The notes under the pieces are model-generated. The model searched no databases and had not been told where the DNA came from. It worked only from the letters and a program-made list of their open reading frames with translations. Below are positions 12,481 through 52,028 of a stretch of 64,000 nucleotides of DNA, piece by piece. The stretch's first letter is position 1; every line of letters starts with the position of its first letter. The translations under genes were made by a program, and so were the position numbers. The stretch comes from Naegleria gruberi (taxonomy: Eukaryota), in assembly GCA_000004985.1 (NCBI GenBank), contig GG738906.1. One strand, 5' to 3'.

Positions 12481-14584
12481 ATGTTGCTCACGGTTGTCTT
12501 TTTATCGGCAGCAGCATATCTTGGCTACCAAGCTTTTTTGACATTTGTTGGAAGTAGGTATTTAATAATACAACAATATAAAATTAAAACTGGCAGGCAA
12601 AAGAACATCAGTGTATGACTTGATCAAAAATCCAAAGTATAACTTGAAGACAGTAGAAGCACCAAAGCTAGCAGGCAAATTATTCTTATTTTTTGTAAAT
12701 TTAGTTGAATTTTCACCAGTTGGCGATTTTTTGGTGCCAATAATTCTCAAATCATCTGGTTTTTCAATCCTTGAAGAAATTTCTGTCTATAACGCTCCTG
12801 CTTTGGATCCCATTCCAATGAGAAACGAAGAAGAACATTTTAATGATTTAAAGCATTTCGAAGAAAATGGTAAATTATCCTGCATGGAAATCCAAAAGAA
12901 AGAAATTGCTAGAATCATTGATGAATACTTTGCTTCTGACATGTCAAAGGAAAATTATGTTTACAATACCATTGCTTATATTCACAAGTTATATAAGGAA
13001 AAGAAAACAACTCCTCTCCAAGTTGCTAAAAATATTCTAAAGGCAATTAAAGAGATTGATGAACAAAATCCATCCTTAAAAGCTGTTATCAAATATGATG
13101 AAAGTTTACTTTTGAAACAAGCTGAAGAATCCACTAAAAGATATGAAGAAGGAAAGGAAATTTCTGTATTTGATGGTGTTCCTGTAACAATCAAGGATGA
13201 ACTTGACCTTGCAGGTTTCACTTCAACCAAAGGAATGAAAGTTACAGAATACACAGAACATGTAATTACTGAAGACGAAGAATCCAATGTTTCAAAATCT
13301 TTACGTGCACTTGGTGTCATGTTCGTTGGTAAGGCCAACCAAAATGAAATTGGTATTTGTGGTAAGTAGTTATATCATTTGATTTAGTCTTTAAAATTCT
13401 AAAATAATTAATATAATTTTGATTTATAATTGTAAAATTTTATCTAGCTCGTGGTATCAATGTAAACTTTGGCTCAGCAAGAAATCCGTACAACCTCCAA
13501 TGTGATACTGGTGGTAGCAGTAGTGGTTCAGGTGCTGGTGTTGGTAGTGGTTTGATTCCATTGAGTATTGGTACGGATGGTGGTGGTAGTGTTAGAATGT
13601 AAGTATGATGAGATCTATTATATTTGAATTAACATCTGGATTTGGTGAACTATTGTCACTAGCCCTTCTTCTTTGTGTGGCGTTTATGGATTAAAGCCAA
13701 CTCATTACAGAATTTCAACCAAGCAAAAGAGTGCCCCTGTTGCTTTTAGTACTTGTGTCGCTGGACCAATGACTGGATCTGCTATTGATTTGACATTGAG
13801 TTTTGCTGCAGTTGCTGGCAGAAGAAGCAATGATTTGAAATCTCTTACTCAACCAAGGGATTTAAGATTGAACGAGATTAGACTTATGGATCCAGATTAT
13901 TATAATCTAAATGAAAGAAAAATTGGAATTCATAACGACTATTTTAATGACGTAAAAGATAATAGAATTCCAAAACTTTGTAGAGACTTTATTGAGAAGG
14001 TATTTTGTAAGATTTATAATGCTCAAATAGATGACTCTATTGTAATCCCATTATTGGAGCCTTCGAGGGTATCCCACTTGGTTACTATTGCCGGTGAAAT
14101 GAGAAATGGTATGAAAGATTATGGATATTATGAATATGATAAGAGATCCAAGCTTTGTCCAGAAACTAGAATGTCTCTTTTATCTCAAAAATACGCCTCC
14201 TCATCCGATTACATTACAGCTCAAAGAGTTAGATCTCACCAAATGGACGAATTTGCAAAACTCTTCGAAAAGGTTGATGTTATTGCATTGCCCACAGTTG
14301 GATGTGTTGCACCTGAATTTGATGAAAGTCAAGTTAAGAAAGGAGGATTGGGTGTCAGCGATTATGATGTACTCTCAAGTATCATGAAATTCATTTTCAC
14401 TTCCAATTTTTGTGGATTCCCTTCAGTTTCAATTCCTATTGGTTTTATTGATAACAAACCAGTTGGCTTGCAACTCATGGCCAAATGGTGGGATGAAGTC
14501 ACCCTTTTGAAATTTTGTTTACTCGCTGAAAAATACACTGAGAAGAAGAAACCACAAAAATTTATTGATATCACATCCCAATAA
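12481..14584 (+). CDS. Fatty-acid amide hydrolase-like amidase (amidase-signature family) with an N-terminal TM anchor. 4 exons: 12481..12553, 12597..13361, 13448..13598, 13663..14584.
   Basis: Amidase signature GGSSSGSGAGVGSGLIPLSIGTDGGGSVR, the Ser-cis-Ser-Lys context (TIKDELDLAGFTSTKG), FAAH-like SSLCGVYGLKPT, and N-terminal MLLTVVFLSAAAYLGYQAFLTFVG. All three introns are GT-AG and restore the frame. Confidence 0.85.
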
Positions 14585-14829
14585 AAATAAAAAAGTTCCC
14601 TCATTTGTGTGAATTATTGAATTTTATTTACACCTCTACCACAGGCATTATACCTACTTTTACACTAATTGTCATCCCATCAACAATTTAACCAAAACAC
14701 GTGGTTATTTATACCATATACTAATCAATTAAAACACGTAAGAAAACTTTAATGTTCACCAAAAGTTTTTTACACAAAGTTCCCACAATTGTTCATCCAA
14801 GAATAACTCCAACATTTTGAAACAAAAAA

Positions 14830-17278
14830 ATGTTCAACAATGCTCCACCAAAAAACCTACTATCGATAACAACAAATACTAACCAGCAACTTCAACAACA
14901 ACTCATACCAACATTTAACATGTCCACAAATAATCAACCAACACACGCATCTTCTTTGACACCAAGTTTGAATAATATAGAAGTAGTTGGGAATGACAAC
15001 ATTCCCTCATCTGGAACAAATATAGATTTAATTAAGCAATTGCTCAATTCTAATCCACAACTACAAATGTACCTACATCAACTTGCCAATCAAACAGAAA
15101 ACAGTAACTCCATGTTGACAACATCCAATAATAATGTTAAAGTAGCAACAATTTCAGACCAAACAAATTCAACAATCGACAATATTCTTTCACTATTCAA
15201 TCAAAGCAATGAATCAAACAACATGTTACAACATCCTGGCAACTATGTATTAAATCACATGCCACAACTCCAAGAGCATAATATTACCTCCAATGCACAA
15301 CCAATGATGCATGGAGATTCTCAACATATTCTATCCCTCTATCTTTCATCAGAGGAAGTACAACAGTTGTTATTGTTGGATCAAGAAGCAACAAACAATA
15401 CTACCACCTTAAATCAACCCCAAATTACATCTCAAAGTTTTGTCAATCCATCAATTTTAAACAATAATTCACTAATAGTAGCAAACGAACAACCACCACT
15501 CTTTACATGCTCTAATTCTGGTACCAGAATCAATACGTGTGCATCTATTGAAGATCATAACAACGCATCCACACATTCTGACCATTTCCTTCATGATGTT
15601 TCTCCTTCGCTTCTTGCATCGCAACAAAATTTGCCTCACCATCAAAAACAAAATACTGCAAACATTGTTCGAAAGCATTCAATCCCCGATCTTCAACTTC
15701 ATCAACATCAACCTATCGTCAATCTCTTATATTCAACATCAACAACAATTAACCAAAATAATCATCACATGATTCAGCCACAAACAACAAATACACAATT
15801 TAATATGGAAATTTCTCCCTCTCCTTCACTTTCATTGCAAATTAATGAAATGGATTTTTATGATTTGCAATATATGAATCAGCCTTTAACGGATTTAGCT
15901 CCCCAACAATATAACAGATATATTTTTGATGGCTGTGAATTCATTCTACCCATCAGGTATTCACCAATAATGAGAGGTTCACAAGTAGTTTTTCTAGGAA
16001 GAGGAGCATACGGGCATGTAATTGCAGCAAATGACACTCAATCAGGAACAACAGTAGCTATTAAGAAAGTACAAAACGTATTTGATAAAGCTGCTTATAG
16101 AATGTTGAGAGGTTTGTGATTTTTATTTCAATAATTTTATTTATTATTTTTATTATTTAAAATAATAATTAATAATTATTTATTTTTATAATTTAATATT
16201 TTAGAGGTGAAAATAATGAGACATTTGAGAGGTCATCCAAATGTAAGTTTAAATTTAATTTTCCAAATTTTATCAATGTTTCAACTGTTATTTGAAAACA
16301 TTCATTATTTTGGATATAGATTGTGACATTAATTGATATTTTTATTCCTGGAAATACGTTAAATGAGTTTAAGGATTTGTATATAGTTTCAGAGTGTATG
16401 AATGGTGATTTAGGAAGAGTGATGACCAATCTATGCAATCAAAAGCAATGTTTATCAATAGATAATATTCGCGATATTATGGGGCAATTATTGAGTGCCA
16501 TGTACTATTTACAGAGTGCAGGAGTACTCCATAGAGATATGAAACCGAGCAATATTTTACTGTCACATAAATTCCAAGTTAAATTGAGCGATTTTGGAAT
16601 GAGTAGAAATGAGGCAACCAATCAACAAGTAACCAATCCTCAAAGTTTTGCTGTTGTAACTGAAATTTATCGACCTGTATGTACTTTACATTCTTTCCTT
16701 TATTGGAATTCGAAATGATCAATATTATACTTCAGCCTGAAGTTGTTTTGAATTATGAGATACAAACTTCTGCAATAGATTCGTGGTCTGTTGGATGTAT
16801 TTTTGCAGAGCTGTTATACATGTTACCGCCATCCTCAAAGAGAAGACCATTATTTGTAATTCTAAAGGATAGTGAAATTAGAGCGCCAAACCACTATGAA
16901 CATTTAAACTTGATGGCTTCTTTATTGGGAAAACCAAAGACAAATGAATTGAAAGGAAATCCACAATATGTACAAGAATTATTGGAATTATTGGAAAATT
17001 TCCCATCTCAAGGATATGATTTTTCTCTAATTTTCCCAGCAGCACCTCCGGAAGCCATTGATCTAATGAAAAGGTTTTTAACATGGAATCCAGAATCAAG
17101 GATATCCTTTGAGGAGGCTCTTAATCATCCCTTCATAAGGAGTAGTAATATGATAAACAGAATTAGGGCTGGCGAAAAAATTGGATCATTGGATGACGAT
17201 GTCAATGTGAGTTCGGAAAAGATAAAATTCCTCTTTTACAAGGAGATAGTGAGCTGGAAATTGGAAAATAAAAACTAA
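14830..17278 (+). CDS. MAPK-like (CMGC) Ser/Thr kinase. A 360-aa N/Q/S-rich N-terminus precedes a kinase domain with a shortened activation segment. 4 exons: 14830..16111, 16205..16242, 16320..16676, 16736..17278.
   Basis: GRGAYGHV...VAIKK, HRDMKPSNILL and DFGMSR. The activation loop is ...AVVTEIYRP|PEVVLNYEIQTSAIDSWSVGC, which has TEIY and lacks the VATRWY of canonical MAPKs. The C-terminal lobe reads LLGKP...DLMKRFLTWNPESRISFEEALNHPF. Confidence 0.8.
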
Positions 17279-17639
17279 TGGATTATTTTAGTGTACAATA
17301 TTCCACCAATTATTTTTCGGTTAAGGCTAATGAATAATCTTGCTTGTTGTTTTGCTAAATGGGCAACCCTTTTTCTAAGATCAACATTGTATCTAACAGT
17401 CGAATAATCCTTAGCTTCTCTAACACTGGCTGAATCTTTCCACATGCTATTCAATTCAAAAATATTACCAATGCAATCAAGAACCTCTTGATACTTTTTG
17501 TCACACAAACAATCTCTCACTCCCCATCAACATTGTAAACTTCGGTTGACTTTGATTTTCCTTTCGGTTTTTCTACAAAATACAAGCATAACTCTTAACA
17601 ATCTCATACATATTATTGCCTATTAGGAAGTCTGTTTCA

Positions 17640-18120
17640 TACCTCTAGTTTAGCATTTCTAAACGCCCTGCTGTGTTGACAGTGTCACCAATGGCAGTAT
17701 TGCACCTACCTTCATTAGATCCAATATTTCCAATAAGACAATTGCCAGTATTAATACCAGTTCTCACCAATGGAAGGTTTTCTTTTTGACAACTGGTCTT
17801 ATATTGCTCAATTCGGAATTAGCAAGCCATTGCTCTGGTGGCCTTTAAAGCATGATCAGGTTTTTAAAGGATGTGAAAAAAAACCATTTGACTCTATTGA
17901 GTATTCAGTATTGATTAAAATAATCAATGTTATCTATTACAACATACCGCCACCAATATATTTATCGAGCACTCCATCATTTTTCTCTACACTCTCTGTA
18001 ACTATGTTGAAATATTCAGTTAAAATCTTGAGAAGAATGGACAAACTGCAAGATTCAGAGCAAAGATCAGAATCAAATTTCATTTTATCAATTAATTACT
18101 AAAAGAACCCAATCTAAACC
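17640..18120 (-). pseudogene. Relic of a class III nucleotidyl (adenylyl/guanylyl) cyclase catalytic domain, disrupted by frameshifts and in-frame stops.
   Basis: Minus-strand segments, in order: KFDSDLCSESCSLSILLKILTEYFNIVTESVEKNDGVLDKYIGG (FSDIVGFT...IGD-like, with D->G), then ESNGFFSHP (SGLP-like), then KPDHALKATRAMAC (HAxxIAxMAL-like), then RTGINTGNCLIGNIGSNEGRCNTAIGDTVNTAGRLEML (RIGIHTGxVVAGVVG...GDTVNTASRME-like). The segments lie in different frames. The shift happens at an A5 run, and a TAA stop follows ...RAMAC. I could not find GT-AG introns that reconcile the frames. Confidence 0.45.
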
Positions 18121-18741
18121 GTGTGAATCATTAATAATATGAACTGAGTATTCCATAAAATAGAAGTTTGAAATGTCAGGATCTTCAGTATTAACATAGG
18201 AACAAGTCCAATGACACAGAAGAGGTATTCTTGAGAGCTGATTCTGGCATTGGATAAATTATCCTTCTTTCCAATACTTTAGCAGTCTGTAAAATAAAAA
18301 CAACAAACAATATATTTTGAAGACTTAAACATTGTGATATTTGAACTGTTGTCATCATTTGTTGATGAGGGATGAATCTTATTATCAGGTTGCTTATATA
18401 ACTTGAACTTCTTTGAGAGAAGTGGTTTGCAGTGATTGAGCTACCATCTTGAGAATTTTATTCTGTAAGTTTTTTGAAACTATTCGTGCTTGTTTCTATA
18501 TTTATTTGAACAATACACAAAATACACAAGGTAAACAGAATTAACTCCGCTAACAATTATCAAAAGTTGAGTAGAGTTTTAATATCACCTTACTCACTTT
18601 TGTACCATATTGTTTCTAACTTATTATAATACTCACAGGAAAGAAAATAACAACCTTTCCTTTAACACCAGATTAAACTTCAACAAAAATTTGTGCATCA
18701 AGTAAATCTAGAACATTTTGTGCTGCAAGCGAGCAAAAAAA

Positions 18742-27647: not shown

Positions 27648-27930
27648 TTTTTAAATAATTAATTTTTTAAATATTAATTTTTTAATGACCTTGGATCTCC
27701 TACCAATAGAACAAAAACGTCTCCTTTCGTTGATTAGATTGATAAAAAAAAGTAATGGTACAACAACCCTCTTCCTTTGATAGAACATTTAACGCTTGTG
27801 GAATTTTGTGTGTGACACAAACTAGCCGCCCAAAAACAGGGGCACCTTTTACTGTTCAAGTCAAAATTTATTCAAAAAGAAAATCCAAACACCACGTAAC
27901 TATTTTTTGAAGGAGTGTTTAGGTGGCAAG

Positions 27931-30900
27931 ATGAAGCAATATTTGTTAAATGTGGCGCTTTTGTTATTAATTTTCTGTGTTTGTGTTTCTTCTTCGGTTG
28001 CTACAAGAAGCAGTACAGAGATTTGTGGATTATTAAGAAGTTTTTCATCGTTCAAGCCTAATGCAGATCCAGATTACTTGGTCGGATTAGATGATTTATC
28101 TTGGGTGAGCACAGCTTGCCAATCCTTAAATACCAACGATACGGAGTGGACTTTCAGTACAGGATGGTTGGAATCTAAAACCATCAAGCCAACTTTTCTG
28201 CCTTCCCAACTCTCTACAATTAACACCAATATATTAAGAAACACTACATTTTCCTACAATATGGAAAATGATACCATCTATTTGGAGGTTACCTTTTCGA
28301 TCAATTCAATTGTGAAGGGAAAAGTTGATGTTATCAATGTGGATGCAGAAGAATTGATCTATACATTTAAGAAATCTACCAGGGATTACATCGATTTTTC
28401 TTCCCTTTCCTTTTCCCCAATTTCTTGGGAGGGAAGCTTAACTTCAAATTCTTGCAACGCTTCAAATATTAATTCCTTCACGAGAACTATATGTTTTTTC
28501 GATTCAAACCTCTTTGATGGCTCTAAGCCTGTTATTTTGGCCATAGGTAATTCTACTAATGATGTTGAGAATGGACTCAGCCAAGAAATTACTTCAAGTT
28601 TCATGTATTTGGCGACTCAATTTGGTGTCAACACACACTTTACTCAAATATCTCCATATAGTTTTAGTTCACCTTCGGTGAGAGGGGTTTTTTTGGATAG
28701 CTCCATGATGTTGAGGCACTTTACAAATGCTACCTACATTCCAAAATCAAAACTTTTTGATTATGAGAAAAACGTCTTCTTTTCAAATCAAGGAGAACTT
28801 TATCAATTATCTGTAGAATGTATAGCAGAAAACTGTTTAGGATCAACCATTGAAGCTCTTAAAGAACTTTTAGAAGAGTCAACTAGAGCTACAAACTGCT
28901 CTATTTCATTCGAAAGAGCTAAATCAAGTTTGACAGCAGCTATTTTTATTACTGATACATCCATCCACCCTCTTGCTTACTCTGGATATAGTGAAGGATT
29001 CGCATTTTGTAGAAATATCAATGATAGTGCGGTTAGTGTTAGAATCGCTGTTAGGGCAACACCAGTAAATGAAATATGGCCTGTCAAACTATATACCCAA
29101 AACGCAAAGAGTGCTTCTACCTTATTACGTTCTATACCTCTATCTTTGAATGGGTATATTTCAGGAAAAATACATTATAATGGTGATTTGTACTATTCTT
29201 ATCCATCAAACATTTATTCCAGTTTGCCTAATAGTGGAGTTTTTATAAGAGATTTGTCCATCAATACCAAATTGATTCATAACGTTATGGGAAAGGTTAG
29301 AAATTCATTATTTACAAACGTATCTGTTCTTGATCAATATGTACTTGGTTTAATGAGTGAAACAAATGTAGATTCAATAATTGCAGATTATTCGAGTGGC
29401 ACAATGTTTCCAACCTTTATTGGATTTTTTAAACATTTTTCTGAGAAATATTATGATAGTATCAGATTCTTGATTAAGAATGACACTGAGTCAACTGTTG
29501 AAGTTTCCATAATTTGCTCCAACAAAGAGTCAATTAATATTACTGATTATGGCATTTCTTCCATAAATTCTCAATTAGAAATCTTTAGAACCAAGGTGTT
29601 AGAAAAATATCCAGAATTATCAAACCTTAAAACCAATACTATTTCCGAAGTTACCCTACTTTCAAAACAACTCTTTACTGGTGCTGTTACTTCCATGATC
29701 CACATTACTGGCTTTTCAACAGAAGATGTATCAGTTTTTGTTGGTTCTCAATTGGATTATTCTGCATCTTTATATTTGAAGGCAAACTTTGAGCAAAGCT
29801 TATTTTCGGAAATTTACGCCTCCCATGATTACAAGACTAATAGTAGTGCGATAAAAGGAAAAATCACAAGAAATGGAGAAGCATTTTTTGTTGGATTGAG
29901 TGAAGGAAATGTAATAGTGGGATCCTCCCCTGCAGGTGTTTCTTTCATGAAGTATTCTGACGCAATTTCTATTCTTTCTAGTAGAGTAGATTCTATTCCT
30001 AACATTAACAGAACAATACCCCTCATTTCAAACGTTCTAACTCTAGTAACGGACAAGTTCAGTATTGAAAATATGCTAATCGTTTTAGCAGCCAAATTGA
30101 GATCTACACAACAAGCTAATACTATTGAAGTTTCTGCAGTAATAGAAGAATTTTTATACTCATTCTGCTTTGATTATGGTTGTAGTGGTTCTATCACAGC
30201 CAATGTTTCTCCAAAAGATGGTTCTAATTTGGGAATGTCACTGTCTATTGTGAAAATGCAACATCTGCACATTGTTGAAAATAATTTGGAGATGTTGCCA
30301 ATAACTCCTACAGTAGGTGTATCTTCATTAATTAGAATGGATACGTTTATCCATTTATCCTTAATTAATCCTTCATTCGAGTCATTCACTATTAAAGGGA
30401 AAGGAGAATTAGATAATTGGGCAGTTCCCTTCAGATATAATATGCAATCAGGAAGAGTTTTACAAAGTTTTATATCATTTGATATTAATATGCCATCTTA
30501 TGTTAATTTTGAAATTATTATGGGAATAGAAATTGAACATAACAATGAATCAATCTTTTTCAATTTTAAATCAGGAAATTTGCTGTTATCAAATAACATT
30601 CCATCTATTCAATTTTCAGGTGATGGCCAAGATAGCTTTGTTCCACCTCAAAATGTGATGTACACGCTTAAGGATGTGTTTAAAGTTTTAACACCAATCA
30701 AGAATGGTCCTCTTAATTTTAAAGTTCCGTTTTTAACTGACGATTTCAACCAGTTTGTTGAATGGGATGGTTATGTTGATACACTCACAGACATGTTACT
30801 TTATCCTAAAATGTTGAGAGGGTCAGACCCACTAGTTTCATTTACTTTAGCAGAAGAGCAGACCCTACTAGATGATTTGAATATCACTATTAATGGTATT

Positions 30901-33900
30901 ATATATCACTGTGCTGGATTTAGTATTGATAACAATTCCACAAATACCACTATTAATAGTTTTAACAGAGGTTTGGAAAAGTGTAATTTAGGCTCTATTT
31001 TATGTGCCAAAGAGTTTAAAAATGAAGTGTCTGATTTTTTAATTGGTATTTTCCCTTTCAATCATTATGGAATCTATCAAATGGAACTAAAGTTTTCTTC
31101 CAATATAAGGGCACCTCAATTTTTTGAATACCAAGTTCCATTTTATCCAATATTCTCTTCATGGAGTGAATTAAGTTGGTTACTCCACATTACCACAAAT
31201 GAGGTTCTCAAAAAACCAGTTGTTTCTACAGTAGATAGGAAATTCCTTCCTATCCCAGAAGAGATGCAAAATGTTTACCCAGCTCAATTTAAAACAATAT
31301 CAGTAGATTTTACATTGAAAAATAATGTTATGAAACCTTCTACATTTGTAAAATTTTTGGAGGACTCTGGAAGTAAGATTTCTTTAGAAACTACTGGTAC
31401 AGCCAATGTGCACAATAATATCCAATTTAACGGAAAGTATGGTTACGTTTTTTCCATTCCTGGTTTATATAATATTACACTACTTACTAACGCTGATTCT
31501 AATTTTACAATTTATAAGAACATTACAGAGTTAGGTTCTTCATTCTCAATGTCCATTAAGGCACAATTAAGGACAGCCACTGAAACAAAGACAGTAACAT
31601 CTAATTTACATATTAGTCTTCCAATTGGAAGAAATTTCTCAGATATCATGATGAATTGGTTACCTGAGCAAGTAGACTACGATATCAGACCAATGTTTTT
31701 TGTTGATGTTAATACAGGTAGCGAAATTTTAGGGACACAAGATCAAATTCAAATAACCCTTAGAAGAGTTATGCTAGAAACTGACAAATTCCTTGTACCT
31801 CTATCATTATTTATTTATGATAGCAATGTACCAATTATTTCAATGACATCACAAATACCTCCAACATCTTTACCAATTTCTTCAGAAATTTCTATCACTT
31901 CACTGCTGAATTTAACTTCTAATGACGATCTTTCATTAAAATCTGGTTCATTGGGTTTATTTGGAGTGAAACCTACTTCAGAGATGGATGGGTCTGGAAT
32001 TATCACACTTGCTTTGAACTTACCTGATGAACACGTTCCTTTGTACAAGTTAATGAGGGCAACTACTGACATTTCATTATTATTTGATCTCTTTGACATT
32101 ACCATAGCAACAGATAACAGTCTTTCTGTACAAAATCCAACAATGAATATCAACAGTTCAATTCCAAGGTTGAACACTATGTCAGTAGTTTCAAAAAAGA
32201 GTTGGAAAATCAACTCTCAAAGCATTCTTGATAATATTGCTTCTGTAATCCACAATCTAGAGGCTAAATTTGATTCTGTTGAGGATACTGTAAAAGAAAC
32301 ATATTATGGACTTTCCCAAACAAACGCAAGTTCATTATGTTCTTTCCTTGACGAAATTATGAAATCAACCAATGACCTTGGAAGGAAATCTGTCCTTCAA
32401 ACACCGTTACCATTCGTAAAGAAGACATTTAAACATTTACTTGAAAGGGCTATAGTTGATAAGTTCCAGTCAGCAAAACAAAGCGTTTGCAATGGTATTG
32501 TTGAATTTTCTTTGGAAAAGTTTTGCGATTTATTAGAGCATAGATGGGGTCAAAAAGTTTGCTACGATTCTCTAATAGCTGACAAGAGTTTTATTGTAAC
32601 CTTAAAGCTTATGAACTATGAGTTAGTTTCGAATGAAGAGCTTTTTGTTGAACCAAATATTTTCGGTACTACCAAAATACCTGCCATAATGGGAATGGAA
32701 GATTCTGTTTCACTTAATTCTAATGCAAATTTTGAAATTAGAATTAAGTGTTCTTGGAAAGATGGCTTTGTGTTTGATATCCTTGATGGAACAACATTTT
32801 ATATTAGTTCTGACTTTGCTGTAAATGGAAATATGAAAGCTTCTCTAGGGCCTATTAATTTAATGCTTGGAAGTGCAAACGTTTTTGTTGGTAAACCAGC
32901 AGTTCTTTCAGCAACACTTGTAAATGGGCTTATTGATCTTTCGCTCACTGGCAATGCTGGTTTCAATTCATTGATATCATTTTTCGATCTATCATCTTGC
33001 CAATTATCAATCGATATACCTGATATAGCCAAATTTTTGGGTGGTAGTTCAAATTCTCTAGTGATAGACCAACATACATGTAAAGGAGGGTCTTTTGTAA
33101 ATTCTGTTACACAAATATTGAAAGACCATACCTTACTAGATTTCTTCAAAGATCCTAGTACTTTCCTTAATCAATTCCAAAATCATTTTTCTGACTTGTT
33201 AAAGAAAATCTTTGATGGACCAAATGGTTTATTGAATAATGTTGTAGTACCAGTTGTGGATAAAGAAATCCAAAAGATATTACAAAAAGAATTAGGGTCA
33301 ATAATTGGCCCAGAAATGACCAATGATTTGACAAATTCTATCACAGTTATGGTAAATAGTGTAATCTCTGGAAAGTCAGTCACTGGAGATGAGCTTACTA
33401 GAGTTATTTTAACAGAATTTACTCAAATAATGTGTCAGAAGTTTAAACCTGTTGAATGTCCAAAAGTACCAGATATCCACAGTGCCGAATATGTTTGGGG
33501 ATTTGAGCTCAAGAGGGTACTGAAACATGGAGTTGCCAATCTTGGTTTTGATATGGGTTCCTCTGCAAAAGGTACTCACTTAACTTCTGAGGTTGAATTA
33601 GATTTTGAAATGGACTATAAACTCAGATTTAATTTGGTATTTTCAAAATCAAATGGTGCTAGTATTACTTTCAATGAAGGTTATGTCTTGGAAGGAATTA
33701 CTGACTTGAAATTGGATGGAACTCAAAAAGTTGAGGGTGAGATTGGTTTTTTAGGAGCAGAAATTATTTTAGATCCTACAAGTTCCTTCCACGCAGAGTT
33801 TGGTGTAGATAATCAGTGGAAAGCATTCATGAAAGCAAACTCAATTTTAACAGGAAAAGCAGAAATGGGATTTGCTGGAATTATTACTAAATTATTGAAA

Positions 33901-36900
33901 AATGTTGAAGACCCTCTTGATGCTCTTCCTCATTTTGAATCAATTATTGAATTCAAATGGAATTGGGAAATGGGAACTTCATCATCCACTACTCCTGAAT
34001 TCTCTCTATCAGAACCTAGTTTATGTATTGGTACTCTTTTATCTAGAATGGCAGAAGGGGTAAGAAAACAAGCAGAAAAGGTTATTGGAAATTTAGATAA
34101 GATTGTTGGTCCTGCTTCATTCCTTACAAAGGATGTGGGAGTACTATCTAGAATATTTGGTAGAGAAATGTCTATTGCAGAGCTAGGAATATTTTTGGCT
34201 AGACACTATTGTTCTGGTGAATGTGATGCGGTTAATGTTGAGGAATTAATTAGTGCCTACAAAAAATTGCACATTCTAATGAACAAGCTTCAAGTTGTCC
34301 GTAACTTTTTATCAACAATGAATGGGTGTGGAATTAGAAGAAAATTCAGCAAATTCGTTGTTGATTTGCAAAAATCGGACGATCCCATTATTCATGATGT
34401 TCCTGACCAAGCATTGATTTTTGAACAAGATATTCCTCCAAGTATGAAGCCAGAAATTGAACAAACATTTTCTATGATTCAATCAAGAACTTACAACTTA
34501 CATATTCCTTTATTTGAGGAACCAAAGAAAATACCATCAGCTCTTATTGGCTTAATGCTAGGAAAAGACTTCAATTTAGTTGAAATTGAAATGCCAAAAA
34601 TGGTACTTTCATTTTCAGCTCATTTTGGATTCCCTATTTGGGCATTCCCTTACGTAGAACTTTACATTCAAGCTTCTGCTGGTCTTGTTGTAGATTTACC
34701 AACAATTGCTTATACTACTAAAGGTATACGAGATGCTGTGCAAACAAAGAAAATAACTAATTTATTTAAAGGTGTTGGAATGATCACTAGAAAACCAGAC
34801 GGATCTCCTATTTGGATTGTATCTGGTTATGTTAGATTAACAGGTGGAGTTTCTGTCAGTGTGGTAAGTTGTAATTAATTTGTGCTCTATTTTTTTACTT
34901 ACAATATTTAGTTTATTTTCAGTGGAAATGCATATGCATTCTTGGAAGCAGAGGCAAGAGTTACTGTATTAGATATAAATGGAAATCAAGTGGTTACTTT
35001 TGATGAATTGTTCTATTTAATTCAAAAGAATGGAATTCAAAACACCGTAACATTTGAAATGCAATTATCTGCAGGATTTGGATTTAATATCAAAGCTTGC
35101 ATTAAAGTTTGGTTTGCAAAGAAATGTTGGACCATTGTAAGCCAAGAGATTAAGGTTCCAATTTTCCCTAAACTTACTTTTGGAGGCAAAAGAATTGCAC
35201 CAGTAGCAGATAGAAATAGTAATTTGAATTTAGATTATGTGAATGAATTTGGTTCATCAAATTCTGACAAACCAGTTTTCATAGTTTATCCTTCAACGAG
35301 TAATGCCGATAGACACACTATTGGCTTCAGTCCATCCAGCAGTATGACAACAAATCTTCCACCACTTTCTTTTCCTAATCAAGGAACAAATTCTGTTGCT
35401 TTTTATGGCAATGCAGGAGGAAAACCTTTCGAAATTAAATCTTTAGGTTATCAAGGGCTTGTTACAGTTCCACCTCTAAACACTGTAACATCCAGAATCC
35501 CATGTGATTCTTATAGAAATACTGATTCTTTTACCATATCCCCAACCTTCATTACACCAAACAATTATTTAGGACTACAATACACACCTGGTATGTGTTC
35601 TCAAGCAATTCTAGAGAATGTAAAATATGGAACAAAGTTTAACTTGCAAGGAACACCATGTCATGTTGTACTAAATGCAGCTTACAAGTCACAAATAGAA
35701 ATTGGTACTGATTCTCAAAATTACAAAGGACCAGTTACAATTAATGGACCTGGAGAACTGACATTTAGTGTTCCTTCTCCAAAATATCATGTTACATCAT
35801 CATCTATTTCAATTGATGGTTCAAGTAATTTACTTAGACTTGAAAATGATATGCCATCTATCACAGTAGTAGGTGACAACCAACCAACAAGTTTTTCTTT
35901 CAGTAATATTGTCAAAACATCAGCTATTACTGCTCTAGGTAGTGAGTCAGATGATGAATTCTTGGTATCTGATGTTACATCAGTTTATGGAGGTTTAATG
36001 TTGAATGGTGGTAGTGGTATCAATAGAGGTACTTTTATTATTCCTGCTTCTAGTGATAATATGAATATTATGATCACTAGCTCATCATTATCTATTGACA
36101 ACACCAATACAATCAGATGGGCAAATCTTGACCACAGAAGCTATAGAGTTTTGAACAGAAATAATCATACAAATATCAAGGTTTCATATTTCTCTCCAGA
36201 TGATTTTAATTCATTCCATGTGGAGACTGAAAATAATCCTACAGGTGTTATTTACCATAATATCTCTTCTTGTTCAACACGAAATGAAATTAGACTTGAT
36301 CTCAAAGGAGGAGGTGAACAAGTGGTGTTACTTTCTCAAAATGGTGAATTCTCTCCTCTTCAATGTTCAATGTACATCCAAGGTGTAGATGGACAAAATA
36401 GTGGATATACTATTCTTATTGACGCAACAAACGAAAAAAGAAATCTCAGATATTCAATAGAAAATGGAAGAGTTACAGTGGATGATCCTGATAACACTGA
36501 TTTTATGACAAACCTTTATATACGTCAGATCTCAAGAGTTAAACTCATTGTTTCAGAAAAGCAATACTCTGATATAAAATTGGTACAAGGAGCTCCAAAC
36601 ACTGAATACCATTTCCAATTTGCGGAAAATACTACAGATTATGGAGTTAAAAAGCCAACTTTGACTTTGTGTAACTTACCTTCAAAATCAACAACTCTTG
36701 TTACTGGAAGTGCTGATATCAATCTAGGTCCAAAAACAGGCATTTGTAGTAATAAGTTTATTAATCCTTTGGAAAATTTGAGAAGTTTGATTGTGGTTGC
36801 TGGCCAAAATTCAAAGGTCACAATGAATTCTGGAAATGATGGGTCACAACACTTTAATATGACCGATAGATGTTTATTTGCCACAGATGACAGAGGTGTT

Positions 36901-39900
36901 AGTTTGGTTGATGTTGACACACCAACCCCATGGATGCAACAATTATTGTTAGAATATGGATTTAATCGTTCTGATTGTCATATTGCTTACTACCCTCAAA
37001 GAACATCATTTGAAATAACAACAGGAAAGGGGGATGATTCATTCTATGGAAGATATGTTACTGCCTCTAGCATTGATATTAATTTGGGTGAAGGAAGAGA
37101 CACCATATTTTATGGAGAAACAGCTACCCCCGCAAACTTTAAAACAGAAAGAGGAGCCAGCAAGTTTGTCCAAGTCAGTCCAACAGGCCCTATCAATCTG
37201 TCAATGAAAAGTAGTACAACAGAAAGAAATATTATTGATTTCTTTACTGGTGATTTAGTTTCTTCCATGACTGGAAATACAGTTATTTATCCAACAGGGC
37301 CTAACCCATATGATTATTCCACAATCTCTTGCTCTAGTAGTGACCTCATAACGTTGCATCATTCTTTCCCTCTTAATTATGATCACAGTACCAAGATGTC
37401 ACTGTTTACAACAAGAGCAATCAACCAGGATATTGTTTATATTAATGTCACTGAAATTTCTACCTCCAGACAAGTGGAATTAAGATCGGATACTAAATTT
37501 ATTGTTTCTCTCCTTGGCTGGGATTCAACAATTGTATTCTTAGGAACAAATCAACAAGGTGAATATGCTAAGAACTTTGTTATTGAATTGAATTTGGATA
37601 TTTCTTCACCTGGCAGAATATTTATTGATACAATATCCAGTACAAACGGTGAATTAGTAGTTAATGTTCCAAATTATGATGCTCAGTCATTCCCACTCCG
37701 TATTGCATCACTAGGACCTGTCAGCTATGGATTCCTTTCTATAGGTGTATTAAGAGTTGAAACTTTAGGAATGAATCATGTTACTGTTAATAGCCCTTCA
37801 ACCCGTGTGAGTGCAGTTATTGAAAATACTCCATCCACTATGGAAGTTGTTTTGAATTTGAGACCACTTTCTACAGTAGATTTGCAAGGGTTGGGTGGTT
37901 TAATGATAATATCAAATGCAGCAGTTACAGTTAGCAGAAATTATTTTATCAAACCAAGTTCTGTTATGGTTGTTGGTAGTTCTTCTGTTACTGTTGTTCT
38001 TGAATCTGACACTTCTTATTTAAATGACAGGTGTATGAATATTCAAGGAATACTTAATACAAGAGTAGTTGCCAGTGAGTGGTTCGCACAGATTATGCAA
38101 GGATTTAATATTCCTTCCACTGCAGTATCTTGTCCATTGTATCTTTTTAGAATTCCATCATTAGATTTTACTGGTCCATTCTTTATTGTTTCTAACTTGG
38201 ATAGCTCATCCAATGTTAGAGCATTATCCATGAAAAATGGTGATCTTTTCCTATCTGACACTATCAGAGATTGGACCAATACTGCAGTATCTGGCGGTGT
38301 TTTAGGTGTGGACGGTAGGTTTGAAGTCCATCTCACAAAATCCAATCTAATTGTTGCCAATAGATTTTCCTCTCCATCTAGTCTTACACATTCTACTTCT
38401 AATCCAGGTACAATCACAAGTATCAGATTTAATCATAATAACTTTAAAGACAAGCCTGTTTATTATTGGGAAACCGACACCTACAACACCTATTTGAATC
38501 CCTCTCCATCAAATATGAATATTCCAGTAATTTATGTAGACAGTGTACCAATTAACAAATTGAATGTTGATTTTTCAAGCTTACCCTTTAATAACTTTAA
38601 TGTCAACCTCGAAAAGAATCAGTTTTTAACTACTGATAATAATGGCATTCAAAAACTAAAAATTTTATGGACCAATCATCCTTTGGACATGGATATTAAT
38701 CTTAACGGTAAACAAAACTCTATTGTTCAACTAACAGAAGAAATAAGTGAAGAGAGAACATATAATATTAGGTCAACAAAAAATTCCAATACCATTATCA
38801 CTTTGAAAGAGTCATCCCCTTATCCAACTTATTCCATTTTTACTAACAGTGAGAGAATACAATTTGGTAATTCTACAATAACTTGCACACCTGATAGAAT
38901 AGTTTTGGACCTATTGAGTCAAGTTCACATTGATGTTAATGAGATACCAGGATCCGCAGAAAGTATATTCTTAACCAAGACTACTAGCTCAATGACCATT
39001 CAAAAATCTTCCGGAAATATGATAGTCTCTAACTACTTGATAGATGTTGTTGATAACTATCTAATTAATCATCAATTCCTTCTTTTTGTTACTGGCGACT
39101 CAGTCGTCACTAAATTGAGAACCAACCAAGCAATCACCTATGATGGTGGATGCTTAGTAAGATCTTCTGGGCTTAACGCTTTGATATCAACATGGTTCCA
39201 TGACTCTCTTACCAAATATTATCCTTCTGAAATTAATTTCCTTTATCCGTGCTCCCTGTTTTCATTCAATACCAAGAGATTAGATGTATTAAACTCTCCA
39301 TACAGTTATCTGAAAAATCTTAATTTAATTAACAATATGGAACTACATGTAAACACTGGTATTGTGAAACTTTTGGACAACAAGGTGAGATGGAAATCAG
39401 TATCACTTCTTCCATCCTCTCTAAGAGTAGATTCATTATTCTACTTAACTATTAAGGACGGGCTCGAAGTTTTTGTGGACACCACCTATCATAATGACAG
39501 TCAGATACTTTATAGAGGTAACAATGTAAATGAATCATCTGTTTGGCATTTTGGATGTCCAGACAATAGCACCAAACCGTTATTGAACATAACTGCACAT
39601 CAAGAATCCAATATCAAATTCTGTTTAGATTATATTCAACTCTCAACCCCGTCACTTTCACTCAATACTCGTAGAGTAGTTGATGTTGGAATATTGTCGA
39701 CTGATCAAACATTACCTACTGACAATACCACAATTTTATTGAATTCTAATAATTTGACTTTATCACAAGCCAACCCGCTCATAGTAAGTTGGACCAACAA
39801 CACTCTTGTTTCAGTAGAAATATTTGTTTCAGTGCTACCTCATTTAGTAATTGTTGAAAGTATTGAAGGAATGAATAATATTCCAATTCTCCATGACCTC

Positions 39901-41877
39901 AATAATACAATAATTAGTCTTTTAATTCCACACGATGAGGGTGTCAGCATGATAAACACAGCTCTCTCGTTCTATTCAAAGACTAGAACAATAACAACAC
40001 GTACATCCAAAAGAAACACTTGCTTCTTACCAGAAATCCAATGCACAAATCAGTTCTGGGAAGATGTGAACGTTCTAGGAAAGGATGCTTTTATGACTAA
40101 ACCTTTGAGAGAAGAATGTGAGGAAGACACTATATTACTGTTAGACACAAGAAATTCATTCTCTTGCGGTTTGAATCATGATTTTGCTAGTCTTAGTTTA
40201 CCAAGCAATCAATATCAAGTTCAATATCCAGAATATTTAGAAAATATTATTTACGCATGGTACTCTCTTACTTTGGTACTGTCCTCAGTGTTGTTTGTAT
40301 TATTTGGCATGTTGGATCCAGGATTATCTAATTTCTTAAACTTGGCAATGTTGGATAAAGTGTCTCCAAGCCCTGTTGTTTGGAGTTGGGATACTAGAGC
40401 TCTTATTACTGCATGTAGAAATGCTGTTCAACACATTAGTACAGGTTGGGTGAAATATGACATGAATGATAAGCATCAAATTCCCCATGTTTTGCTATAT
40501 GTTGTAACATTCTTTGCTGTTTGCATTGCAATACCGTTTGTACTAACAAGAAACAAGAAGAAAGGAAGAGCCAGACCAGTTCTTATGGTATTGTACAAAA
40601 TCTTCCAAATTTGTATATGTCTTTTGTTTTTACCAATGTTTTCTCAAACAACTGAGATAGCATATTTTGTTCCAACCCTCTTGTGTTACTTGATTGTACT
40701 TACCCTAACAATTTCTTTCAATATTTGGAGTCCATCATATCTGATTGCCAATCAATCCGTTACAAAATATTTGAGAGTTTTCAGTAACATTTATTTAATA
40801 GTAATTGTTTCCATTGTAATGATACAAACAGGAGTTACATACTTTGATTTTAACATATTTGGAGTTGAAGTGTGGGTAATTGATCTTCTGTCTGTAATAG
40901 TGCAGCAAGTACTTAGACTTGTTTACATAGTACCATTGTTTGTGATTTCAGGTAAAAGATGGTTCCATTATTTCTTCCTTATATTATCTGTATTACTTTG
41001 GATTGCCTCATTTGTTATTGGATTAGTTTCCTTGGTGTTCAATCCACTATTCTATGACATTGATTTATTCCCATATTGGATCACTTTTAACTGTACATGT
41101 ATTGTATATTCAGTTCTTGTTTGCTTCATTTGGCCTAAAATGATTCCACCAAGAAAATCATCTATTATTAACTCTCTAAATAGTAATACATTAGGTATTA
41201 GAAGAAGCTTAGGTATTGATGGAAACAGAAACAGTCTTAATGCTTCACAAGAAGAATATGAGGAGTCAATTAAGCTTATTAAATCTGACAGACAGAACCA
41301 AGGTTACGAAAATATCTCCAACTCTCTGTTGAAACAACCATTAGTTAGTCATGATGATTATGAGGAATATAATGATTCTGGATATACTAATTTTGTAGAA
41401 ATGGAAAATATGAAAAATGAAAACTACGCCCAACAAGACTATCATCATGCACCAGAATCAGATAAACAAAAATATGAAGAAAGACAAGAAGGAACAGCAA
41501 CAGGTTCTGTTTATTATACCAATGAAGAAGTGAACGAAAATAATAATCAACAAACAGATTATTACGAGGAGAGTTATGATAATTATGAAAATGACCAACC
41601 AAACCTCACTCTTAATCGACAAGTTAATGAACCACAATCATTCCCAATTATTCCACCTCCACCTGCTTATGAAGAACCTACCTATTACACAAACGATGAA
41701 TATCGCTCCACCTCACCAACTAGCAACAATAACAACAGAAGTGATTACAAGTATGACGAAGATGAAGAAGAAACCAATGAAGAACGAAAGTATTACAAGG
41801 AAATGCTCAGAAAAATTATTGTTGAATCTACGGATCCAAGCACATCAATTGAACCTGGTTCCTTCAATCAAGTTTAA
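27931..41877 (+). CDS. Giant (about 4630 aa) secreted multi-pass membrane receptor-like protein. It has a signal peptide, an ectodomain of about 4100 aa, a GPS-like juxtamembrane motif, 8-9 TM helices and a Tyr/Asn/Glu-rich cytoplasmic tail with a PPxY. 2 exons: 27931..34863 and 34912..41877.
   Basis: MKQYLLNVALLLLIFCVCVSSSVA signal peptide. Two very long ORFs are joined in frame by a 48-nt GTAAGT...TTTAG intron (34864..34911). The second ORF has no ATG or signal peptide of its own. Hydrophobic helices run from YAWYSLTLVLSSVLFVLF through ITFNCTCIVYSVLVCFIW (about 40260..41150). Just upstream is C..C..W...C...C-GLNHDFASL. The tail contains IIPPPPAYEEP. Confidence 0.75.
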
Positions 41878-43884: not shown

Positions 43885-43891
43885 CTTTTAT

Positions 43892-47284: not shown

Positions 47285-47577
47285 GACGATGAAATTTTTT
47301 TTTCAATTTAAATGTTGATAACAAGGTAAAGTTTTGCAACTTCGAAAAAGTTGATGATGATTGTTGTGCACATGAAATACTTTCTTATTTACATTGAAAA
47401 TTTTGGCTGTTATTTGTTTGGCAACATAGCCATGGCAGAGTGCTTGATGATATTGAAAGGAAATATTGTGCAACAAGACAAAAATAGGTTTGTAAACTTT
47501 TGTGTTGGGAAACAAAAAATTAACGACTTGTTTGATTGGTTGGGCTTGTTTGTGGCAGACACAAATCAAAAAAAAAT

Positions 47578-50154: not shown

Positions 50155-50367
50155 TAAGGGCAGTTTTTTTTCGGTTGAAAATTTGTATTTTACTGATTAC
50201 TTTTCCATTAATTTACGGTAACATTATTAGACCGCTTATTCCAATAACAAAAGAAATACAAACAAGGGTAAGCACGAATCAGAGGATGGGCGAAGTTGTC
50301 AATGAAAAAGTCTCGTATTTACATTATTTCATAACAGTTTCGATTTACTTTTGAAAAATAAAAAAAA

Positions 50368-51991: not shown

Positions 51992-52028
51992 AATGTATAT
52001 TAATTTCCAATAAATCAATTATTTACAA

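What the first reader, a model, noticed from the sequence alone, without database searches (positions are those of the whole stretch)
17280..18480. Decayed class-III nucleotide cyclase gene (pseudogene) between the MAPK-like gene and a large nuclear-protein gene
All the conserved blocks of an adenylyl/guanylyl cyclase catalytic domain are present on the minus strand, but in three different frames. The switch from the SGLP-like block to the HAxxIAxMAL-like block coincides with an A5 homopolymer, a 1-nt indel signature. A TAA interrupts ...RAMAC*FRIEQYK. The second metal-binding Asp is Gly (KYIGG). The downstream C-terminal region is also broken by stops. This region otherwise looks like 1.4 kb of non-coding spacer.
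Basis: partly seen in the sequence, partly recalled or inferred. Interest (0 to 1): 0.5.

Follow-up and report, generated by a model that had tools for sequence, protein, structure and literature searches.

The report
Dead cyclase gene in Naegleria gruberi
The spacer between a MAP-kinase gene and a large uncharacterised gene of the amoeboflagellate Naegleria gruberi holds the collapsed, unannotated remains of a receptor-type adenylate/guanylate cyclase gene; this is an ordinary pseudogene from a greatly expanded gene family.

Summary
The minus strand at about 18447-17310 carries a class III cyclase relic. A stitched translation scores 27.3 bits on Pfam PF00211 (cut-off 21.9). A family HMM run against all 4051 six-frame fragments of the window puts its seven best hits here, all collinear (best E 6e-22).

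The organism is Naegleria gruberi NEG-M, not a dictyostelid, and it uses the standard code. The closest intact relative is the N. gruberi paralog NAEGRDRAFT_50277 (59% identity, 99% bootstrap as sister). That protein belongs to a heterolobosean family built as TM1, extracellular sensor, TM2, cyclase and a tail ending DYSLTLTEK.

The relic is that whole gene shrunk to about 1.1 kb:
- About 270 aa of the sensor are gone.
- About 120-130 aa covering TM2 and the linker are gone.
- The cyclase half has at least four frameshifts.
- It has in-frame TAA and TAG stops.
- An 18-aa deletion follows VDGE.
- A 54-nt intron-like insertion carries two further stops.
- The second metal-binding Asp is Gly.

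The relic breaks 8 of 55 family-invariant positions, against 0-2 for each intact member. No gene is annotated here. Verdict: a real but ordinary unannotated, non-processed pseudogene. Transcription and read-level accuracy could not be tested.

The parts
17310..18447 (-). Whole cyclase relic. It runs from a possible original ATG (18447-18445) to the family's C-terminal ...DYSLALTEK plus TAA stop (17312-17310). It is about 1.14 kb, against at least 2.1-2.5 kb for intact relatives of 687-862 aa.
   Evidence: The family HMM hits are collinear. tblastn supports the same layout, as does the frameshift-aware alignment. The ATG is read from the sequence only and has no homology support.
18369..18383 (-). 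NKIHP motif of the N-terminal cytoplasmic region. Weak evidence.
   Evidence: tblastn against P0102 residues 47-59 gives 54% over 13 aa, E 1.4 in a 1.7-kb database. The same NKIHP motif occurs in the N-terminal ORF of L002.
18284..18325 (-). Remnant of transmembrane helix 1 (SLQNILFVVFILQT). It is fused in frame to the end of the sensor domain, which implies loss of about 270 aa (about 810 nt) of the extracellular sensor.
   Evidence: 80% identity over 15 aa to Willaertia P0102 residues 89-103, E 0.098 against the whole window. Junction. The family HMM did not detect it on its own.
18097..18283 (-). C-terminal roughly 60 aa of the extracellular sensor domain (AKVLERRIIYP ... SVHIINDSHGLDWVLLV). 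It contains one frameshift near 18205-18211.
   Evidence: P0100 residues 137-177 match at 41% over 41 aa, E 8e-4 against the window. Family HMM positions 252-279 match at E 5.4e-4. QTAKVLERRII aligns with P0100 QASKVLENRHI.
18060..18101 (-). Junction of the second large deletion. About 120-130 family positions (TM2 and the juxtamembrane linker) are replaced by about 35 nt. TAG (18101-18099) and TAA (18098-18096) lie directly upstream of a vestigial beta-1 strand, LIDKMKFDSDL, which aligns with FTDIADFT.
   Evidence: The HMM jumps from position 279 to 410 between adjacent fragments. DP alignment. Coordinates read.
17948..18059 (-). N-terminal half of the cyclase catalytic domain: SESCSLSILLKILTEYFNIVTESVEKNDGVLDKYIGG.
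   Evidence: 70% identity to P0264 residues 426-465. HMM E 3.5e-16.
17949..17951 (-). GGC (Gly) codon at the position of the second metal-binding Asp (IGD becomes IGG).
   Evidence: All 15 aligned relatives have D in this column. Coordinates.
17894..17947 (-). 54-nt AT-rich element, GTATGT...AATAG, a multiple of three, containing TAA and TAG. It is either a retained lineage-specific intron or an insertion.
   Evidence: coordinates; 18-codon insertion relative to P0264. Its size, donor and GC resemble local introns of 59-93 nt. There is no intron at this site in three N. lovaniensis homologs or in L002. It is unique in the window.
17861..17865 (-). A5 run at the frame switch between ...GFFSHPLK and PDHALK... 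The relic is also 2 aa shorter than the family here.
17594..17857 (-). C-terminal half of the cyclase domain: DHALKATRAMAC*FRIEQ...GNIGS...IGDTVNTAGRLEMLN*RYETDFLIGNNMYEIVK.
   Evidence: 65% identity to P0264 residues 477-568. HMM E 6e-22.
17819..17821 (-). In-frame TAA stop.
   Evidence: Relatives have L, V, S or T in this column.
17645..17647 (-). In-frame TAG stop at a family-invariant Lys (LNKRY).
17520..17593 (-). Last strand of the cyclase domain (LCLYFVEKPKGKSKSTEVYNVDGE). It is entered through a frameshift at about 17593-17592.
   Evidence: HMM positions 556-579.
17517..17519 (-). TGA at the junction of an 18-aa deletion plus frameshift. P0264 residues EIEDITSSQKVVSDRLLRI are missing.
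17356..17516 (-). C-terminal extension of the family: RDCLCDKKYQEVLDC...YSTVRYNVDLRKRVAHL.
   Evidence: 39% identity over 56 aa to P0264 residues 613-668. HMM positions 598-659, E 8.8e-5.
17310..17339 (-). Family C-terminal signature DYSLALTEK plus TAA stop. It is reached through a further frameshift near 17355.
   Evidence: 8 of 9 residues identical to the C-termini of P0100 and P0104. All close relatives end ...(T/N/H/K)EK.

Best explanation
This is a non-functional, non-processed pseudogene. It is the remains of a Naegleria gruberi receptor-type class III nucleotidyl cyclase. The parent protein was built as N-terminal cytoplasmic region, TM1, extracellular (probably dCache-like) sensor, TM2, linker, cyclase homology domain and a roughly 100-aa tail.

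The relic is the sister copy of the intact N. gruberi gene NAEGRDRAFT_50277. After it lost function, it decayed mainly by deletion, so the gene shrank to about half its length and now serves as the spacer between a convergent MAPK gene and a divergent 1668-aa gene.

Shown: the homology, the collinearity, the lesions, the faster evolution and the position in the family tree. Inferred: that it makes no protein, that it arose by duplication rather than loss of an older ortholog, and the order of the decay events.
For: - **Organism and code.** Eight window proteins, seven single ORFs and one that I spliced, are exact matches to N. gruberi GenBank proteins. ORFs of up to 2350 aa are open under the standard code.
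- **Homology.** Pfam PF00211 is above its cut-off. The best phmmer E is 1.5e-45, and the top named hits are Willaertia and Naegleria cyclases. The seven best family-HMM hits in the whole window all lie in the locus and are collinear.
- **Lesions.** There are four frameshifts, TAA and TAG stops, an 18-aa deletion and a 54-nt insertion carrying two stops within the cyclase and tail half alone. About 120-130 HMM positions are missing between 18097 and 18060. Most of the sensor is missing. The metal-binding Asp is Gly.
- **Relaxed constraint.** The relic changes 8 of 55 family-invariant columns, against 0-2 for each of 12 intact members. It has 39 unique changes against 19 in P0264, p about 0.01.
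- **Placement.** Relic plus P0264 has 99% bootstrap support.
- **Annotation.** The kinase I assembled is exactly EFC38565/D2VX52, and the next gene, at 18742, is D2VX53. The accessions are consecutive, so no CDS is annotated between them (this step is inference).
- **Other features.** No Rfam family matches the region.
Against: - No expression data could be consulted, so a transcribed or regulatory role is not excluded.
- No independent assembly or read set covering the locus could be recovered, so individual lesions are not verified one by one.
- 47 of 55 invariant residues survive, and identity to the paralog reaches 65-70% in the cyclase blocks. The decay by substitution is therefore modest compared with the number of indels.
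- The 54-nt element looks like a good intron. A short spliced product therefore cannot be ruled out formally, though it would end after about 57 aa.
Confidence: 0.9

Rival explanations
1. It is a live gene whose apparent lesions come from sequencing or assembly errors, or from unrecognised introns.
For: One frame switch lies at an A5 run. One stop-bearing 54-nt segment has intron-like ends.
Against: - At least four frameshifts, two stops outside any possible intron and three large deletions lie within 1.1 kb of a Sanger assembly.
- No GT lies between PDHALK and the TAA.
- TM2, the linker and most of the sensor are physically absent.
- The catalytic Asp is Gly.
- Flanking genes in the same window read cleanly. 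Their translations match GenBank exactly, and independent ENA contigs are 99.6-99.8% identical to other parts of the window, 13181-16120 and 43603-53786.
Confidence: 0.02
2. The relic has been taken over for another use. It might be a transcribed non-coding or antisense RNA converging on the MAPK 3' end, or promoter and UTR sequence of the divergent 1668-aa gene. It would be protein-dead but functionally retained.
For: It fills the whole 1.46-kb interval between the two genes. Its 5' end lies about 295 nt from the neighbour's ATG. Conservation of cyclase-domain residues is higher than the indel load would suggest.
Against: There is no positive evidence. No Rfam hit was found. The residue conservation is explained by recent descent from a constrained gene. 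No second species was available to test conservation of the DNA itself.
Confidence: 0.05
3. It is a unitary loss, or one allele of a polymorphism, rather than a dead duplicate. The locus would be the N. gruberi ortholog of a gene still intact in sister species, or on the other NEG-M haplotype.
For: The relic differs from P0264 about as much as P0264 differs from P0100, which comes from another, unidentified organism (59.4% against 58.9%). The split from P0264 is therefore old.
Against: - The tree places the relic with P0264, inside the P0100 split (99% and 97% bootstrap).
- The P0100 locus L002 shares no neighbours with the window.
- The N. lovaniensis MAPK locus has no cyclase next to it.
- The heavy decay argues against a recent segregating null allele.
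Confidence: 0.15

Closest known systems
Naegleria gruberi NAEGRDRAFT_50277 (EFC42674.1 / D2VKE8; P0264), an annotated 'predicted protein' with a Guanylate_cyc domain
   Same: - 59% amino-acid identity over about 240 alignable positions, rising to 65-70% in the cyclase blocks.
- Shared idiosyncratic motifs: KENLP, GNC.(M/I)GNIGS, LIGNN.YEIVK, KGKSK.TEVY.VDG, DKKY, and DY(A/S)LALTEK followed by a stop.
- Sister in the tree with 99% bootstrap support.
   Different: P0264 is an intact 687-aa ORF on another scaffold (395 kb). The relic has lost most of the sensor, TM2 and the linker. It carries frameshifts and stops and has Gly at the second metal-binding Asp.
Heterolobosean receptor-type cyclase family (N. 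lovaniensis C9374_012253, C9374_010015 and C9374_010876; N. fowleri FDP41_008636; Willaertia magna ABK040_005169 and ABK040_010255; Acrasis kona 'cya1')
   Same: The domain order is the same, and so are the TM1 motif SLQNIL..F.LQT, the G.DWV.LV motif that ends the sensor, the cyclase domain and the C-terminal ...SLTL.EK.
   Different: Identity is 40-50%. All of these are intact proteins of 640-860 aa. None lies next to the MAPK ortholog in N. lovaniensis.
Bacterial dCache_1 / HAMP / class III adenylate cyclases (for example Bradyrhizobium 'adenylate cyclase', P0282)
   Same: These are the next-closest relatives of the heterolobosean family, at 30-35% identity over about 55% of the length. They share the sensor, TM, cyclase layout. 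P0264 gives a sub-threshold hit to the MCP-like PDC_1 sensor (E 0.002). The first word-indexed search returned only bacterial cyclases.
   Different: They are far more distant than the eukaryotic paralogs. The bacterial hits reflect the limits of the word index, not a bacterial origin of this locus.
   Same: They share the class III catalytic fold.
   Different: Wrong lineage. None appeared among the named top relatives. The window is from a heterolobosean.

Membership tests
Class III nucleotidyl cyclase catalytic domain (Pfam PF00211) | Sequence match above the curated Pfam threshold | tested here: met
   27.3 bits for the stitched translation and 24.6 bits for the single-frame piece, against a cut-off of 21.9.
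Class III nucleotidyl cyclase catalytic domain (PF00211) | Two metal-binding aspartates (beta-1 F.D and IGD) | tested here: not met
   The second Asp is Gly (GGC 17951-17949), while all 15 relatives have D. The first is at best a vestigial 'LID' directly after TAG and TAA. The catalytic role of these residues comes from general knowledge of class III cyclases.
Class III nucleotidyl cyclase catalytic domain (PF00211) | Transition-state Asn and Arg (..TVN.A.R(L/M)E) and the substrate-specifying Lys | tested here: met
   IGDTVNTAGRLE and DKYIG are present and align with the relatives. The Thr in NTAIGD, where class IIIa has Asp, suggests class IIIb. That subclass assignment is recalled from the literature and was not tested.
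Class III nucleotidyl cyclase catalytic domain (PF00211) | Continuous open reading frame across the domain | tested here: not met
   There are three frames, TAA and TAG stops, and a 54-nt stop-bearing insertion.
Heterolobosean TM / sensor / TM / cyclase receptor family (P0264-like) | Cyclase domain followed by a roughly 100-aa tail ending D(Y/F)SL(T/A)L(T/N/H)EK plus stop | tested here: met
   DYSLALTEK plus TAA at 17339-17310. The tail matches HMM positions 598-659 at E 8.8e-5.
Heterolobosean TM / sensor / TM / cyclase receptor family (P0264-like) | Complete extracellular sensor domain between TM1 and TM2 | tested here: not met
   Only about 60 aa of its C-terminal end remain. About 270 aa are missing.
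Heterolobosean TM / sensor / TM / cyclase receptor family (P0264-like) | TM2 and juxtamembrane linker | tested here: not met
   HMM positions 280 to about 409 are absent between 18097 and 18060.
Pseudogene (non-processed) | Homology to a functional family together with multiple disabling lesions | tested here: met
Pseudogene (non-processed) | Relaxed constraint compared with intact relatives | tested here: met
   8 of 55 invariant columns are broken, against 0-2 in intact members. The relative-rate test gives 39 against 19 unique changes, p about 0.01. dN/dS was not computable because no DNA of the paralog was available.
Pseudogene (non-processed) | Not a retrocopy: no poly(A) tract, and parental introns retained | tested here: inconclusive
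   A 54-nt intron-like element is present. Relatives have no intron there, and the gene structure of P0264 could not be fetched.
Pseudogene (non-processed) | No functional transcript or protein | not testable with these tools
   No RNA-seq or proteome access.

The most novel reading that the evidence does not exclude
The relic is not inert. It could be kept as a minus-strand non-coding transcript that converges on the MAPK (D2VX52) 3' end, or that shares sequence with the paralogous cyclase mRNA, and so act as a regulator. Alternatively, an intact allele could survive on another NEG-M haplotype, which would make this a segregating null of a sensory receptor.
Probability: 0.05. Interest if true: 0.35.

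Novelty: new member of a known kind. Interest (0 to 1): 0.1.

Why it matters
It matters little beyond annotation. It adds one unannotated pseudogene to the very large Naegleria cyclase repertoire; a Naegleria pangenome paper counts at least 81 cyclases (PMC9928731). It also gives one worked example of how a gene decays in this compact genome, mostly by deletion, with the remains serving as intergenic spacer.

The case also carries two cautions. The taxon guessed from base composition was wrong. The first word-indexed search pointed to bacteria only because of its limited sensitivity.

Tried and rejected
1. **Ciliate code (TAA/TAG = Gln).** I first suspected that the stops were Gln codons. I rejected this because ORFs of 1500-2350 aa are open under the standard code and the window is N. 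gruberi.
2. **Bacterial origin or HGT.** One search returned only bacterial GAF-cyclases at about 35% identity. The exhaustive search found heterolobosean relatives at 44-59%, so I rejected this.
3. **Small introns to repair the frames.** A 20-nt GT..AG near 17590 and a 23-nt one after the TAG are far too short compared with local introns of 59-93 nt. Neither would remove the stops.
4. **Segmental duplication of a MAPK plus cyclase pair.** The paralogs P0378 and P0264 lie on the same 395-kb scaffold, but their UniProt accessions (D2VKQ2 and D2VKE8) are about 110 genes apart. I did not take this further.
5. **Synteny.**
   - Three N. lovaniensis cyclase loci and the P0100 contig L002 share no neighbours with the window.
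   - The N. lovaniensis MAPK ortholog locus has no cyclase.
6. **Independent assembly of the locus.**
   - ENA metagenome ERZ929261 holds N. gruberi contigs 99.6-99.8% identical to the window.
   - Exact-protein look-ups for three ORFs in or next to the relic found nothing.
7. **DNA of P0264.** It is not on record, so I could not check the intron position or run a codon-level test.
8. **Cheap-gap DP alignment of the N-terminal half.** It produced many spurious islands. I kept only the anchors also supported by tblastn or the HMM.

Full report
**Source and genetic code**

Eight proteins encoded in the window are exact matches to GenBank proteins of Naegleria gruberi NEG-M. Seven are single ORFs: EFC38562, EFC38566, EFC38571, EFC38617, EFC38619, EFC38620, and others on the same 286,411-bp scaffold. 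The eighth is the MAPK-like protein, which I spliced by hand from four exons. It equals EFC38565/D2VX52 residue for residue.

GC content is about 33%. ORFs of 1538-2350 aa are open under the standard code. TAA and TAG are therefore true stops. My first idea, that a ciliate-type code would read them as Gln, is rejected.

**Is the cyclase similarity real?**

Yes.
- The frame-0 piece alone scores 24.6 bits on Pfam PF00211, and a stitched translation scores 27.3 bits. The curated cut-off is 21.9.
- tblastn with unrelated bacterial cyclases gives collinear HSPs in two frames, with combined E around 1e-11.
- An exhaustive phmmer search of 1.84 billion representative proteins gives a best hit at E 1.5e-45 and 56% identity.
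- I built an HMM from 12 intact relatives and ran it against all 4051 six-frame fragments (8 aa or longer) of the 64-kb window. This is the least biased test. The seven best hits all lie on the minus strand between 18258 and 17278 and follow HMM order: positions 252-279, 410-449, 477-534, 536-553, 556-579, 598-659 and 663-674. Their E-values are 5.4e-4, 3.5e-16, 6e-22, 0.0096, 0.094, 8.8e-5 and 2.9.
- Nothing else in the window resembles the family.

**What family is it?**

The first, word-indexed search returned only bacterial GAF-cyclases at about 35% identity. That result came from the tool's limited sensitivity.

The exhaustive search and a follow-up found much closer eukaryotic relatives:
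- Two N. gruberi proteins: P0264 (EFC42674, NAEGRDRAFT_50277) and P0265 (EFC42541).
- N. lovaniensis C9374_012253, C9374_010015, C9374_010876 and C9374_004051.
- N. fowleri FDP41_008636.
- Several Willaertia magna proteins.
- Acrasis kona 'cya1'.
- Unnamed metagenomic or Logan proteins, including P0100 from SRR25266766.

The full-length members (800-860 aa) share one architecture:
- a cytoplasmic N-terminus;
- TM1 with the motif SLQNIL..F.LQT..CIG;
- an extracellular region of about 300-350 aa that ends ..G.DWV.LV;
- TM2 and a linker of about 90 aa;
- the cyclase domain;
- a tail of about 100 aa that ends D(Y/F)SLTL(T/N)EK.

The next-closest proteins are bacterial dCache_1/HAMP cyclases. P0264 gives a sub-threshold match to the first PDC sensor domain (E 0.002). 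The sensor is therefore probably Cache-like, but this is an inference.

**Anatomy of the relic**

All coordinates are on the minus strand.
- **Possible start codon:** ATG at 18447-18445, read from the sequence only.
- **N-terminal motif:** NKIHP at 18383-18369 (weak).
- **TM1 remnant:** SLQNILFVVFILQT at 18325-18284, 80% identical over 15 aa to Willaertia P0102.
- **First large deletion:** TM1 is fused in frame to AKVLERRIIYP..., which matches P0100 residues 120-130 and P0264. About 270 aa of the sensor are therefore gone.
- **Sensor remnant:** the last roughly 60 aa of the sensor survive at 18283-18097, with one frameshift near 18205-18211. They end in SVHIINDSHGLDWVLLV (E 8e-4; E 5.4e-4).
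- **Second large deletion:** between 18097 and 18060 the HMM jumps from position 279 to 410. TM2 and the linker (about 120-130 positions) are replaced by about 35 nt. This stretch holds TAG and TAA (18101-18096), followed by a vestigial beta-1 strand, LIDKMKFDSDL.

A frameshift-aware alignment of P0264 residues 405-687 to 18110-17313 gave 59.4% identity over 239 aligned codons. It shows these lesions:
- an 18-codon insertion at 17947-17894 that contains TAA and TAG;
- a frameshift at the A5 run (17865-17861), where the relic is also 2 aa shorter than the family;
- TAA at 17821-17819;
- TAG at 17647-17645, replacing a family-invariant Lys;
- a frameshift at about 17593;
- an 18-aa deletion with a frameshift at about 17519, which creates the TGA at 17519-17517;
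- a frameshift at about 17355.

The alignment ends at the family C-terminus, DYSLALTEK plus TAA, at 17339-17310. The second metal-binding Asp is Gly (GGC 17951-17949), while all 15 relatives have Asp. The transition-state motif IGDTVNTAGRLE and the Lys of DKYIG are retained.

**The 54-nt element**

It is 54 nt long, runs GTATGT...AATAG and has 22% GC. It resembles the three introns of the neighbouring kinase gene, which are 59-93 nt with GTATGT, GTAAGT or GTTTGT donors and 5-27% GC.

If it were spliced out, the protein would keep the family's length. But it is a multiple of three, so a simple insertion fits equally well. Three N. lovaniensis homologs and the P0100 gene have no intron at that site. 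The structure of the closest paralog could not be fetched.

I leave this question open. Either way the gene stays broken.

**Could it still be a gene?**

No plausible splicing removes the TAA. There is no GT between PDHALK and the stop, and the relic aligns residue for residue with its paralogs across both stops.

More than 1 kb of coding sequence is physically missing. Flanking genes in the same assembly translate exactly to their GenBank proteins. Independent metagenome contigs are 99.6-99.8% identical to other parts of the window, 13181-16120 and 43603-53786. Wholesale sequencing error confined to this 1.1 kb is therefore not credible. Even so, I could not recover an independent assembly of the locus itself.

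**Evolutionary placement and constraint**
- On 226 alignable positions the relic is 59.4% identical to P0264, 49.8% to P0100, and 33-49% to the other twelve aligned relatives.
- Neighbour-joining with 300 bootstraps groups the relic with P0264 at 99%, and adds P0100 at 97%.
- The relic branch is the longer one. Tajima's relative-rate test with P0100 as outgroup gives 39 unique changes in the relic against 19 in P0264 (p about 0.01).
- The relic breaks 8 of 55 columns that are invariant in the 12 intact close relatives. Each intact member breaks 0-2 in a leave-one-out test.

The relic is therefore a sister copy of an intact N. gruberi cyclase that has evolved under relaxed constraint. Most of its divergence from P0264 probably built up while it was still functional, because 47 of 55 invariant residues survive. 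This last point is inference.

**Context and annotation**

The relic fills the interval between the stop of the MAPK-like gene (D2VX52, plus strand, ending at 17278) and the ATG of a 1668-aa protein with no Pfam domain (D2VX53, starting at 18742).

The UniProt and GenBank accessions of these two genes are consecutive. The only unassigned minus-strand accession in the neighbourhood, EFC38618, falls after D2VX53. I conclude, by inference, that no CDS is annotated over the relic. Rfam finds nothing here.

The N. lovaniensis ortholog of the MAPK (75% identity) is followed by a serine carboxypeptidase gene, not a cyclase. Its 22-kb locus shares only the kinase with the window. The syntenic-position test is therefore uninformative at that evolutionary distance.

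**Verdict**

I correct the taxon and the comparison set, and I extend the account with two large deletions, the N- and C-terminal remnants and the closest paralog.

This is an ordinary, unannotated, non-processed pseudogene from a much-expanded sensory cyclase family. A pangenome study counts at least 81 cyclases in Naegleria (PMC9928731). Interest is low.

Noticed in passing
L001:1-3494, compared with window 53786 onward: ENA metagenome contig ERZ929261 k127_139781 is 99.84% identical to window 43603-53786. It then leaves the N. gruberi sequence inside the condensin-subunit gene and continues into bacterial-looking genes (UDP-glucose dehydrogenase, and a glycosyltransferase with a GDSL lipase domain). 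It is probably a chimeric metagenome contig, though a structural variant is possible.
   Followed up: no
P0264 and P0265 (N. gruberi EFC42674 and EFC42541), not in the window: The annotated N. gruberi models (687 and 642 aa) start inside the sensor domain. They lack the N-terminal cytoplasmic region and TM1 that the N. lovaniensis, N. fowleri and Willaertia homologs (820-862 aa) have. They are likely N-terminally truncated gene models.
   Followed up: partly
window 27826-41874 (+): Two adjacent ORFs of 2350 and 2321 aa, separated by a single stop or short gap, probably form one gene of about 4700 aa. It starts with a signal-peptide-like sequence. I did not characterise it.
   Followed up: no
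window 16112-16735 (+): The MAPK-like gene D2VX52 has a 429-aa Q/N-rich N-terminal extension, a 38-nt micro-exon (16205-16242) and three short introns of 59-93 nt. One intron has only 5% GC.
   Followed up: partly
L002 (Logan SRR25266766 contig, 5609 nt): It carries an intact cyclase (P0100). This is the closest relative of the relic and P0264 pair from another, unidentified organism (GC 35%; about 74% nucleotide identity within the cyclase blocks). Its neighbours are unrelated to the window.
   Followed up: partly
Nothing found here supports the 'nuclear' label.
   Followed up: partly
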